Shown one piece after another: positions 20,805-20,966 of a stretch of 64,000 bases of DNA. Position 1 is the first letter of the stretch. Every line of letters begins with the position of its first letter. The stretch is from a virus, in the IMG/VR virus record IMGVR_UViG_3300044960_000113, positions 120,281-184,280 of that record; one strand, given 5' to 3'. Position numbers and translations under genes: made by a program. The notes below the pieces were generated by a model, which was given only the letters and a program-made list of their open reading frames with translations, was not told where the DNA came from and did not search any database.

Positions 20805-20883
20805 TGGTCCGGAAGATAGGATTTGAACCTACATGATTCCATTACTCTTTCTACAGTTTCGAAGACTGAGGAGATACTTCCGG
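20805..20883 (-). tRNA. rearranged tRNA-Arg(TCG)-like RNA lacking a normal D arm
   Basis: 7-bp acceptor CCGGAAG/CTTCCGG, CAGT-CTTCGAA-ACTG, canonical T arm, CCA. Confidence 0.7.
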
Positions 20884-20886
20884 AAT

Positions 20887-20966
20887 TGGCCTCGATGACA
20901 GGATTCGAACCTGCATGTTTCCAATTAACCTTTCAACTGGTTCGTAGCCAGAGGGTATACATCGAG
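20887..20966 (-). tRNA. rearranged tRNA-Arg(ACG)-like RNA lacking a normal D arm
   Basis: CTCGATG/CATCGAG, CTGG-CTACGAA-CCAG, canonical T arm, CCA. Confidence 0.7.

What the first reader, a model, noticed from the sequence alone, without database searches (positions are those of the whole stretch)
20805..20966. Two tRNA-Arg genes with a rearranged fold: D-loop-like element moved 3' of the anticodon arm
Both RNAs have a perfect 7-bp acceptor stem, canonical T arm, CCA and a 7-nt loop CT-NCG-AA. Only TA plus 6 nt precede the anticodon arm, and a 21-22 nt insert follows it (TTGAAAGGTTAATTGGAAACAT and TAGAAAGAGTAATGGAATCAT) with a D-loop-like TAA(T)TGG. ACC/GGT in one copy and CTC/GAG in the other suggest a covarying displaced D stem. 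The stems diverge while the architecture is kept, which argues for selection, and the CGN-only Arg codons of leader B suggest they work in decoding.
Basis: partly seen in the sequence, partly recalled or inferred. Interest (0 to 1): 0.78.

Follow-up and report, generated by a model that had tools for sequence, protein, structure and literature searches.

The report
Rewired phage arginine tRNA pair
Two adjacent genes in a giant phage's tRNA cluster encode arginine tRNAs (anticodons ACG and UCG) in which half of the D-arm lies after the anticodon arm instead of before it; well over a hundred phage contigs share this non-cloverleaf layout, tRNA finders miss it, and I found no paper describing it.

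Summary
Window 20887-20966(-) and 20805-20883(-) are two tRNA-like genes. Each has a perfect 7-bp acceptor stem, a T arm, an encoded CCA and an Arg-type anticodon loop (ACG, UCG). Neither has a D hairpin. Instead, three bases before the anticodon arm (ACC; CUC) pair with three bases after it (GGU; GAG), and an Arg-type D-loop with GG and A20 follows.

I found 118 distinct sequences with this layout in IMG/VR. In the 102 I aligned, the displaced stem is paired in every cell that has letters and covaries at positions my search patterns left free. RNAalifold predicts the same fold unaided. The displaced GG covaries with T-loop positions 55 and 56, so the elbow contact appears to be kept.

These two genes are the only CGN-reading tRNAs found in the 184-kb record. 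A leader peptide with four CGN codons and a terminator/antiterminator switch heads their cluster.

Best reading: working arginine tRNAs with a re-threaded D-arm. Charging and decoding are inferred, not shown.

This scan has already found the same class on other DNA, with UCU and CCU anticodons. New here are the ACG/UCG pair, the tertiary covariation, the link to the leader, and rare Ile-anticodon relatives. Five literature searches that looked for the layout found no description.

The parts
20887..20966 (-). Gene A: rewired tRNA-Arg, anticodon ACG (20943-20945), 77 nt plus encoded CCA (20887-20889), discriminator G (20890)
   Evidence: Sequence. Model R1 scores it 94.8 bits. Rfam gives only a sub-threshold tRNA-Sec match. 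ARAGORN finds nothing.
20805..20883 (-). Gene B: rewired tRNA-Arg, anticodon UCG (20860-20862), 76 nt plus encoded CCA (20805-20807), discriminator A (20808)
   Evidence: Sequence. Model R1 scores it 84.4 bits. Rfam tRNA scores 33.1 bits with the D arm deleted and a 17-nt insertion.
20954..20956 (-). A: 5' strand of the displaced D stem (ACC). I read it as positions 23-25, continuous with the anticodon stem through C26 and U27.
   Evidence: Pairs with 20928-20930. The family covaries here (columns 11-13 with 37-39).
20928..20930 (-). A: 3' strand of the displaced D stem (GGU). I read it as G10 N11 N12. A nearly invariant GAAA connector (20931-20934) precedes it.
   Evidence: Of the alignment columns for this connector, three are invariant and the fourth is A in 101 of 102 rows. 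Part of this was imposed by the pattern.
20915..20927 (-). A: U13 plus a displaced Arg-type D-loop (A14 A15 U U G18 G19 A20 A A21), then the invariant CAU linker into the T stem
   Evidence: Column composition. GG covaries with T-loop positions 55/56.
20871..20873 (-). B: 5' strand of the displaced D stem (CUC)
   Evidence: Pairs with GAG at 20845-20847. Compared with A, two of the three pairs are changed on both sides.
20845..20847 (-). B: 3' strand of the displaced D stem (GAG), preceded by GAAA (20848-20851)
20833..20844 (-). B: U13 plus a displaced D-loop one base shorter than in A (AAUGGAAU), then CAU
20968..21482 (-). Context: the rest of the same tightly packed tRNA cluster upstream. 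In order: Gly(UCC), Glu(UUC), Gly(GCC), Asp(GUC), an atypical Asp(GUC)-like gene, then 1 nt, gene A, 3 nt, gene B.
   Evidence: ARAGORN, Rfam, sequence.
21490..21710 (-). Context: promoter-like site, the 29-codon leader ORF (21555-21644) rich in Gly, Arg (CGN), Asp and Glu codons, and a terminator (21495-21521) with a competing antiterminator, all directly upstream of the cluster
   Evidence: Fold z-score -5.0.
29918..29994 (-). Context: the record's only canonical tRNA-Arg (UCU), an ordinary cloverleaf with A20

Best explanation
A and B are working elongator tRNAs for arginine. A would read CGU/CGC/CGA after A34-to-I editing by the host. B would read CGA/CGG. They are built on a non-cloverleaf chain path: acceptor 5' strand, U8 A9, then the strand that normally forms positions 22-25, the anticodon arm, a short connector (N-GAAA), then G10-N-N-U13 with an Arg-type D-loop, a CAU linker, the T arm and the acceptor 3' strand. 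In effect, segment 10-21 has been moved from before the anticodon arm to after it. The D stem still forms, now as a 3-bp helix that encloses and probably stacks on the anticodon arm. The D-loop still reaches the T-loop, so the L shape and the ArgRS identity marks (A20, C35, A/G73) would be kept. What is shown: the helices, their covariation, the covariation between D-loop and T-loop, the family's size and its restriction to phages. What is inferred: the mapping onto standard tRNA numbering, the 3D fold, charging by host ArgRS, editing by host TadA, and use on the ribosome. Why the chain is rewired is unknown. My leading guess is escape from a host or phage factor that acts on ordinary tRNA-Arg or its gene.
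For: (1) Both genes have perfect acceptor stems, T arms, CCA and 7-nt loops with U33 and C35. (2) 118 distinct relatives come from IMG/VR contigs (the 8-10 contigs whose G+C I measured span 0.32-0.60), with anticodons ACG 47, UCU 43, CCU 16, UCG 9 and CCG 3. The pattern hits that carry the layout all have Arg anticodons, although the patterns left positions 34 and 36 or the whole anticodon free. (3) The displaced stem is 100% paired and changes on both sides in all three pairs. The whole structure has 99.3% of cells paired, against 35-51% when the 3' partners are slid by 1-3 columns. (4) RNAalifold predicts exactly this structure without being told it. (5) Tertiary covariation: G19 to A goes with C56 to U in 8 of 8 cases, G18 to A goes with U55 to G in 3 of 3, and no GG sequence carries either T-loop change. 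(6) Model R1 separates A (94.8 bits) and B (84.4 bits) from the record's other matches, which score at most 22.7 bits and lie at its ordinary tRNA genes. (7) The 184-kb record has only one canonical tRNA-Arg (UCU), yet 36% of its Arg codons are CGN. The complete genome of Streptomyces phage Mildred21 shows the same gap-filling: its only annotated tRNA-Arg in the tRNA region is CCU, and its ACG, UCG and UCU genes are rewired. (8) The ACG loop is CUACGAA in 55 of 58 family members; from memory, that is also the loop of E. coli tRNA-Arg(ICG), the TadA substrate. (9) The cluster's leader ORF has 4 CGN codons in 29 (P about 4e-4). 12 of its last 17 codons are ones read by the tRNAs downstream. A 12-bp antiterminator competes with the terminator. 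(10) A CCA-adding-enzyme homologue lies 2 kb away.
Against: The single-sequence folds are not exceptional (z about -1.2), and A's minimum-energy fold prefers a rival 8-bp hairpin. The anticodon stem has only 4 Watson-Crick pairs plus a U-U in both genes. The record is about 52% complete, so canonical CGN tRNAs could lie in the missing half. My structural filter required acceptor, anticodon and T stems, so covariation in those three helices is partly selected for; the displaced stem was not filtered. The columns for C25 and G10 were fixed by the pattern. The sequences with tertiary changes may descend from few events. The leader statistics are post hoc. No phage ArgRS or clear TadA was found, so function depends on host enzymes accepting this shape.
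Confidence: 0.78

Rival explanations
1. They are tRNA-shaped RNAs that are not used for decoding. They would act as decoys or inhibitors, soaking up a host tRNA-targeting nuclease, ArgRS or another tRNA-binding defence protein.
For: Phage tRNAs are known to counter tRNA-cleaving defences (abstracts of PMC10264068, PMC11555353 and PMC11464382, listed). The odd chain path could be tolerated more easily in a decoy. No expression or charging data exist.
Against: Every mark needed for charging and decoding is kept: A20, C35, A/G73, CCA, U33, the T-loop and the elbow covariation. The genes fill exactly the isoacceptor gaps in this record and in Mildred21. Five Arg anticodons occur, which a decoy for a single nuclease would not need. 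The leader uses the codons these tRNAs would read.
Confidence: 0.1
2. They are D-armless tRNAs with a long variable arm, like some mitochondrial tRNAs. On this view the 21-22 nt insert is a variable arm and the ACC/GGU match is incidental.
For: Rfam aligns B with the D arm deleted and the insert placed in the variable region, and aligns A to tRNA-Sec with a long extra arm. A's minimum-energy fold puts part of the insert into a hairpin.
Against: That hairpin uses the anticodon stem's 3' strand and is absent from B's minimum-energy fold and from the family consensus fold. The insert has no conserved internal helix. The displaced stem covaries in 102 sequences, and the insert's GG covaries with the T-loop.
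Confidence: 0.03
3. They are working tRNAs but are charged with an amino acid other than arginine, or are poorly specific.
For: Rare relatives with the same layout carry Ile anticodons (GAU in Mildred21; UAU in L077 and L082) and have U in place of A20. The scaffold can therefore change identity.
Against: A and B keep A20, C35 and G/A73. From established knowledge, these are the E. coli ArgRS identity set. The identity switch in the Ile-type relatives comes with loss of A20, as expected if A20 matters.
Confidence: 0.05
4. They are decayed pseudogenes of ordinary tRNA-Arg genes.
For: Standard finders reject them.
Against: Perfect stems, an encoded CCA, 118 distinct conserved relatives with compensatory changes, and a dedicated model score above 84 bits.
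Confidence: 0.02

Closest known systems
Canonical bacterial and phage tRNA-Arg (Rfam RF00005), for example this phage's own tRNA-Arg(UCU) at window 29918-29994 and, from memory, E. coli tRNA-Arg(ICG)
   Same: A 7-bp acceptor stem, a 5-bp T stem with a UUCGAAU-type loop, and an Arg anticodon loop (CUACGAA, which from memory is that of E. coli). Also a D-loop motif with G18 G19 A20, U8, A14, an A/G discriminator and CCA.
   Different: No D hairpin lies between positions 9 and 26. The D-stem strands come in swapped order along the chain, on either side of the anticodon arm. The D-loop lies between the anticodon arm and the T arm. The secondary structure is a three-way junction, not a four-way junction. 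Fixed GAAA and CAU connectors replace the variable loop.
D-armless mitochondrial tRNAs (metazoan tRNA-Ser(AGY), nematode tRNAs; reviewed in PMC7609411)
   Same: No hairpin in the D-arm position, and standard tRNA finders miss them.
   Different: Those tRNAs have lost the D-loop and the elbow contact and are shorter and more flexible. Here the D stem, the D-loop with GG, and the contact with the T-loop are all kept, only re-threaded, and the length is a normal 76-77 nt.
Circularly permuted and split tRNA genes (Cyanidioschyzon merolae, Nanoarchaeum; from memory)
   Same: The order of tRNA segments in the gene differs from the textbook order.
   Different: In those cases processing restores an ordinary cloverleaf. 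Here the acceptor 5' and 3' strands are in the normal order, the change is an internal transposition of segment 10-21 rather than a circular permutation, and I noticed no bulge-helix-bulge site (not searched for systematically). The mature RNA itself must be non-cloverleaf.
tRNA-Sec, allo-tRNAs and other bacterial tRNAs with unusual arm lengths (PMC5389517, PMC7609411)
   Same: Natural non-standard tRNAs found by metagenome mining. Rfam's tRNA-Sec model is the weak best hit for gene A.
   Different: Those keep the four-arm order and only change stem lengths (8/4, 9/3, a 6-bp D stem). A and B have the 7/5 acceptor/T arrangement and Arg anticodons.

Membership tests
Canonical tRNA (Rfam RF00005 / cloverleaf) | 7-bp acceptor stem with the 3' end N73-CCA | tested here: met
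   Both genes have perfect 7-bp stems and an encoded CCA.
Canonical tRNA (Rfam RF00005 / cloverleaf) | T arm: a 5-bp stem and a 7-nt loop with T54 U55 C56 and A58 | tested here: met
   A has GCAGG / UUCGAAU / CCUGU. B has GUAGG / UUCAAAU / CCUAU.
Canonical tRNA (Rfam RF00005 / cloverleaf) | D hairpin (stem 10-13 with 22-25 closing the D-loop) between position 9 and the anticodon arm | tested here: not met
   Only 6 nt lie between A9 and the anticodon stem. Rfam deletes 15 model positions there.
Canonical tRNA (Rfam RF00005 / cloverleaf) | Score at or above Rfam's gathering threshold (29 bits) | tested here: inconclusive
   B scores 33.1 bits and passes. A has no RF00005 hit kept and only a tRNA-Sec match of 23.5 bits against a threshold of 47.
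tRNA-Arg identity (E. coli-type ArgRS rules, established knowledge) | C35 with G36 or U36 | tested here: met
   The anticodons are ACG and UCG. C35 is invariant in the family, though the pattern partly imposed it; the patterns did not.
tRNA-Arg identity (E. coli-type ArgRS rules, established knowledge) | A20 in the D-loop, directly after G18 G19 | tested here: met
   GGA is present in both genes. Column 49 is A in 96 of 102 rows, and several of the exceptions sit in rows where MAFFT shifted the GG. That this A occupies the spatial place of A20 is inferred.
tRNA-Arg identity (E. coli-type ArgRS rules, established knowledge) | Aminoacylation with arginine by ArgRS | not testable with these tools
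   No ArgRS gene is in the record. This needs a charging assay.
Rewired phage tRNA-Arg class (model R1, built here; also noted earlier by this scan) | A 3-bp helix between bases just 5' of the anticodon arm and bases 5-6 nt 3' of it, followed by U-A-A..GG-A and CAU before the T stem | tested here: met
   94.8 and 84.4 bits. A and B were part of the seed alignment, so they match by construction; the gap to the other matches of the record (at most 22.7 bits) is the informative part. The pairs covary.
D-armless mitochondrial-type tRNA | Loss of the D stem and of the G18G19 contact with the T-loop | tested here: not met
   The displaced stem covaries, and GG covaries with positions 55/56.
tRNA-Sec | UCA anticodon, a 13-bp acceptor/T domain, a long paired extra arm | tested here: not met
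   Arg anticodons, a 7/5 arrangement, and no conserved helix inside the insert.
Permuted tRNA gene | The 3' half is encoded upstream of the 5' half, with the termini joined by processing | tested here: not met
   The acceptor 5' strand is first and the 3' strand plus CCA is last in both genes.

The most novel reading that the evidence does not exclude
The re-threaded D-arm is an immune-evasion or self-protection chassis. On this reading, phages spread an arginine tRNA (and occasionally an isoleucine tRNA) whose core is wired so that a host tRNA-targeting nuclease, or a homing endonuclease or host-shutoff nuclease aimed at ordinary tRNA-Arg or its gene, cannot recognise it, while ArgRS, EF-Tu and the ribosome still can. 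In this phage its supply would be switched on by a leader-peptide attenuator that senses a shortage of charged tRNA-Arg(CGN).
Probability: 0.25. Interest if true: 0.92.

Novelty: new variant of a known kind. Interest (0 to 1): 0.85.

Why it matters
[quoted passage not shown] If these RNAs are charged and used, they would show that the L shape can be reached by a different chain path, and that bacterial ArgRS, EF-Tu, RNase P, TadA and the ribosome accept it.

That bears on four things. First, how tRNA architecture is constrained. Second, genome annotation: these genes are unannotated, labelled tRNA-OTHER, or in one case mislabelled tRNA-Phe, so phage tRNA repertoires and codon-usage arguments are off. 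Third, the arms race between phages and hosts over tRNAs. Fourth, the design of orthogonal tRNAs.

Relatives occur in cultured Streptomyces, Microbacterium, Rhodococcus and Vibrio phages, so the question can be tested directly.

Tried and rejected
2. A's alternative minimum-energy hairpin. I rejected it because it is absent from B's minimum-energy fold and from the family consensus fold.
3. Reading the conserved GAAA as a GAA (Phe) anticodon, as the GenBank record of Mildred21 does for its UCG-type gene. I rejected this because no stem flanks that position, while the CU-UCG-AA loop sits on a covarying stem.
4. The first BLAST hit in Mildred21 (H1) first looked like an ordinary tRNA-Phe sharing the T arm. 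One search showed it is in fact a rewired UCG gene.
5. A phage-encoded ArgRS: none found. A phage TadA: the two deaminase ORFs look like dCMP or cytidine deaminases, with TadA at 39.8 bits against a cut-off of 150.
6. A homing endonuclease next to A and B, as seen beside relatives in Mildred21 and A3Wally: the neighbouring ORFs have no Pfam or PHROG match of that kind.
7. Extra base pairs 10:40 and 15:31 are mostly U-U. Pair 14:33 (C-G in 94 of 102) and a possible A9/U10 pairing with the CAU linker do not vary enough to test.
8. My first structural regex returned nothing because of a scripting error; I fixed it.
9. The automatic count of the 15:48 pair was mis-anchored. I use only the alignment-based counts.
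10. Five literature searches that looked for the layout and two papers read for it gave no description of this layout. A sixth search looked for tRNA-Arg-targeting defences.

Full report
SETTING. The window is bases 120281-184280 of a 184,280-bp IMG/VR virus record estimated at 52% complete, with G+C of 25-32%. It carries replication and repair genes expected in a large phage: UvsW-like helicase, RecA/UvsX-like protein, DNA ligase and an intein-split ribonucleotide reductase. It also carries a CCA-adding-enzyme homologue, a permuted tmRNA and 32 ARAGORN-detectable tRNAs in the whole record. Nearly all genes here lie on the minus strand.

THE OBSERVATION. Each has a perfect 7-bp acceptor stem, U8 A9, six more bases, and a 4-bp anticodon stem flanked by a U-U. 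The loops are CU-ACG-AA in A and CU-UCG-AA in B. An insert of 22 nt (A) or 21 nt (B) follows, then a normal T arm, a G or A discriminator, and an encoded CCA. One base separates A from the CCA of the preceding tRNA, and three bases separate B from A. ARAGORN reports neither gene. Rfam's tRNA model reaches B at 33.1 bits by deleting the D arm and inserting 17 nt, and reaches A only as a sub-threshold tRNA-Sec match.

WHAT THE INSERT IS. Three bases just before the anticodon arm (ACC in A, CUC in B) are complementary to three bases that follow a GAAA connector after the arm (GGU, GAG). After that come U, then AA(U)UGGAA(A/U), then CAU, then the T stem. In standard numbering the 3' strand reads as G10 N11 N12 U13, followed by A14 A15 .. 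G18 G19 A20 .. A21. That is the 5' half of a D stem plus an Arg-type D-loop. The 5' strand reads as 23-25, running straight on into C26, U27 and the anticodon stem. So the chain order is 1-9, 22-48-like, 10-21, CAU, 49-76. All pairs are nested, giving a three-way junction. This numbering is my inference. The pairing itself is tested below.

RELATIVES. The 8-10 contigs whose G+C I measured span 0.32-0.60. A structural filter requiring acceptor, anticodon and T stems, with no D hairpin possible, gave 118 distinct sequences: ACG 47, UCU 43, CCU 16, UCG 9, CCG 3. That filter allowed only NCG and NCU anticodons. The raw pattern hits, however, left positions 34 and 36 or the whole anticodon free, and those that carry the layout also have only Arg anticodons.

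A MAFFT alignment of 102 main-type members (A1) was scored against my structure. The displaced helix is paired in 100% of cells. Pair 11:39 is CG 45 / AU 38 / GC 14 / UA 5, and pair 12:38 is CG 79 / UA 9 / AU 3 / GC 3. These columns were N in every search pattern and were not used by the filter, so this covariation is unbiased. The third pair (C25:G10) was largely fixed by the pattern. Sliding the 3' partners by 1-3 columns drops pairing from 99.3% to 35-51%. RNAalifold, given only the alignment, returns the identical structure. A covariance model built from A1 (R1) scores A at 94.8 bits and B at 84.4 bits, while the record's other matches, which lie at its ordinary tRNA genes, score at most 22.7 bits.

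THE ELBOW IS KEPT. Among the 102 sequences, every one in which the second G of the displaced GG is A also has U instead of C at T-loop position 56 (8 of 8). Every one in which the first G is A has G instead of U at position 55 (3 of 3). No GG sequence has either T-loop change (after correcting six rows where MAFFT shifted the GG). Three sequences swap T54/A58 to A54/U58. The two aligned sequences with G instead of A at the position I both have C instead of U in the last base of the CAU linker. That fits a Levitt-type 15:48 pair, but it is weak evidence. The sequences with changes may descend from few events, so these are counts and not probabilities. Still, they are what a D-loop docked on the T-loop predicts, and I take them as the strongest argument that an L shape is preserved.

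EVIDENCE BEARING ON FUNCTION.
- Identity marks. A20 directly after GG, C35 and an A or G discriminator are present in A and B and dominate the family. From established knowledge this is the E. coli ArgRS identity set.
- Anticodon loop. The ACG loop is CUACGAA in 55 of 58 members; from memory, that is the TadA substrate loop of E. coli.
- Isoacceptor gaps. The record has one canonical tRNA-Arg (UCU, 29918-29994) and no other CGN reader. Yet in 188 long ORFs, CGU is 22.8%, CGA 9.0%, CGC 3.0% and CGG 1.2% of Arg codons. Streptomyces phage Mildred21 has a complete genome. In its 73.5-96 kb tRNA region the only annotated tRNA-Arg is CCU, and R1 finds four rewired genes: Arg-ACG and Ile-type GAU (both unannotated), Arg-UCU (labelled tRNA-OTHER) and Arg-UCG (labelled tRNA-Phe(gaa)). 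So the rewired genes fill the gaps in the isoacceptor set.
- The leader. Upstream of the Gly-Glu-Gly-Asp-Asp*-ArgA-ArgB cluster lie a promoter-like site, a ribosome-binding site and a 29-codon ORF (P0001, 21555-21644). A terminator sits directly before the first tRNA. The ORF has four Arg codons, all CGN. CGN codons are 1.18% of the genome's codons, so P(at least 4 of 29) is about 4e-4. Twelve of its last 17 codons are Gly, Glu, Asp or CGN, the codons read by the tRNAs downstream (P about 8e-6, post hoc). The region folds strongly (z = -5.0), with a 12-bp antiterminator that begins a few bases after the stop codon and competes with the terminator.

DISTRIBUTION. The same 5' pattern scanned over 596 Gb of bacterial and archaeal genomes gave 39 hits, and my filter recovered 16 loci with the layout. 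For comparison, it found 118 or more loci in the much smaller viral collection. The six loci I checked with ARAGORN were Achromobacter anxifer LMG 26857 (the one isolate) and five metagenome-assembled genomes. Four of them, including the isolate, lie in dense phage-style tRNA islands, and the isolate's island also carries a permuted tmRNA. Cultured phages with the layout include Streptomyces phages of the Mildred21 group, Microbacterium phage A3Wally, Rhodococcus phage Trina (labelled tRNA-OTHER) and Vibrio phages such as K406.

NOT ONLY ARG. Three members carry Ile anticodons and have U where the others have A20: GAU in Mildred21, UAU in L077 and L082. The scaffold can apparently change identity, and when it does the ArgRS mark is lost. 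A second subfamily keeps the topology but has different connectors and 5-bp anticodon stems.

MECHANISM AND ITS LIMITS. I conclude that A and B are most likely working arginine tRNAs with a re-threaded D-arm. From the textbook tRNA structure (recalled, not tested), position 44 stacks next to position 10, position 9 touches position 23, and position 21 lies next to position 48. The three new connectors (N-GAAA, U, CAU) therefore join places that are already neighbours. That would explain why the rewiring is tolerated. Why it is favoured is open. Candidates are escape from a tRNA-targeting defence (known for other phage tRNAs: PMC10264068, PMC11555353, PMC11464382), escape of the gene from a homing endonuclease (HNH genes abut the copies in Mildred21 and A3Wally, but not here), or a neutral variant that spread. 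I have no RNA-level data. No ArgRS or clear TadA is encoded in the record.

COMPARISON AND NOVELTY. Five literature searches that looked for the layout and two targeted readings found no description of it. A 2024 paper states that all known bacterial tRNAs are canonical cloverleaves (PMC11551756). Earlier agents of this scan found the same class on other phage genomes with UCU or CCU anticodons and also found no paper. I tested the class claim independently on my own loci. New here are the tandem ACG/UCG (CGN) pair, ACG as the commonest anticodon in my sample, the covariation between D-loop and T-loop, the link to a CGN-rich leader, and the Ile-type derivatives. I class it as a new structural variant of a known kind (tRNA).

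Noticed in passing
window 21490-21710 (-): Leader-peptide attenuator ahead of the Gly/Glu/Gly/Asp/Asp*/Arg/Arg tRNA cluster. It has a promoter-like site, a ribosome-binding site and a 29-codon ORF whose tail is made of Gly, Arg (CGN only), Asp and Glu codons. A 12-bp antiterminator competes with a terminator that abuts the first tRNA. I know of no described case of attenuation control of a tRNA operon by the codons its own tRNAs read.
   Followed up: partly
window 12340-12530 (-): A second unit of the same design. 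A 34-codon ORF (12411-12515) rich in Asn, Lys, Gln, Ile and His codons, then a terminator, precede the Asn-Lys-Ile-Gln-His tRNA cluster. The enrichment alone is modest (15 of 34 codons, P = 0.03).
   Followed up: partly
window 20968-21043 (-): A third tRNA that ARAGORN misses (Rfam 36.7 bits). It has an Asp-type GUC anticodon, a D-loop without GG and a T-loop AGCAUGA without UUC, so both partners of the elbow are changed. It lies directly after a canonical tRNA-Asp(GUC) and 1 nt before gene A.
   Followed up: no
window 28083-28157 (-): A tRNA with a CAU anticodon (Met or Ile2 type), Rfam 38 bits, not called by ARAGORN. Its acceptor stem has three G-U pairs.
   Followed up: no
Streptomyces phage Mildred21 MF155946.1 73703-73779; L077:3566-3641(+); L082 minus strand (start 3353 of the reverse complement): Relatives with the same rewired layout but Ile anticodons (GAU, UAU), with U instead of A20 and an A73 discriminator. 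This looks like an identity switch on the rewired scaffold.
   Followed up: partly
Streptomyces phage Mildred21 MF155946.1 91367-91442 and 86379-86453; Rhodococcus phage Trina NC_042040.1 104372-104450: Public annotation is inconsistent. The UCG-type rewired gene is labelled tRNA-Phe(gaa), two others are labelled tRNA-OTHER, and the ACG-type and Ile-type genes are unannotated. HNH endonuclease genes end 1-6 nt before rewired genes in Mildred21 and A3Wally.
   Followed up: partly
window 32160-32506 (-): Phage-encoded permuted (two-piece) tmRNA, Rfam RF04321 at 92.7 bits. A similar permuted tmRNA sits in the tRNA island of Achromobacter anxifer LMG 26857 (L185) that also holds a rewired tRNA-Arg(CCG).
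   Followed up: no
window 22921-23997 (-): Homologue of the CCA-adding enzyme / poly(A) polymerase family (PolyA_pol head and RNA-binding domains), 2 kb from the cluster. Nearby are a NUDIX protein (19366-19779) and a radical SAM protein (25814-26968).
   Followed up: no
window 5312-8483 (-) and 8639-9880 (-): Ribonucleotide reductase large subunit split over two ORFs, with intein-splicing domain matches at the junction. A TnpB/IS605 OrfB-type gene lies next to it.
   Followed up: no
window 11600-11688, 12135-12224, 15903-15998, 17081-17168 (-); G000 118057-118151: Several ARAGORN tRNAs are unusually long for their type: His 89 nt, Asn 90 nt, Ser(UGA) 96 nt, Tyr 88 nt, Ile(UAU) 95 nt. They may carry insertions or extra arms.
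   Followed up: no
window 18170-18283 (-): Small Lys-rich ORF of 37 codons (MKKSIVSKDL...), with a structured region between it and the Trp/Ala/Phe tRNA cluster. Another first-stage note calls it ArfA-like.
   Followed up: no
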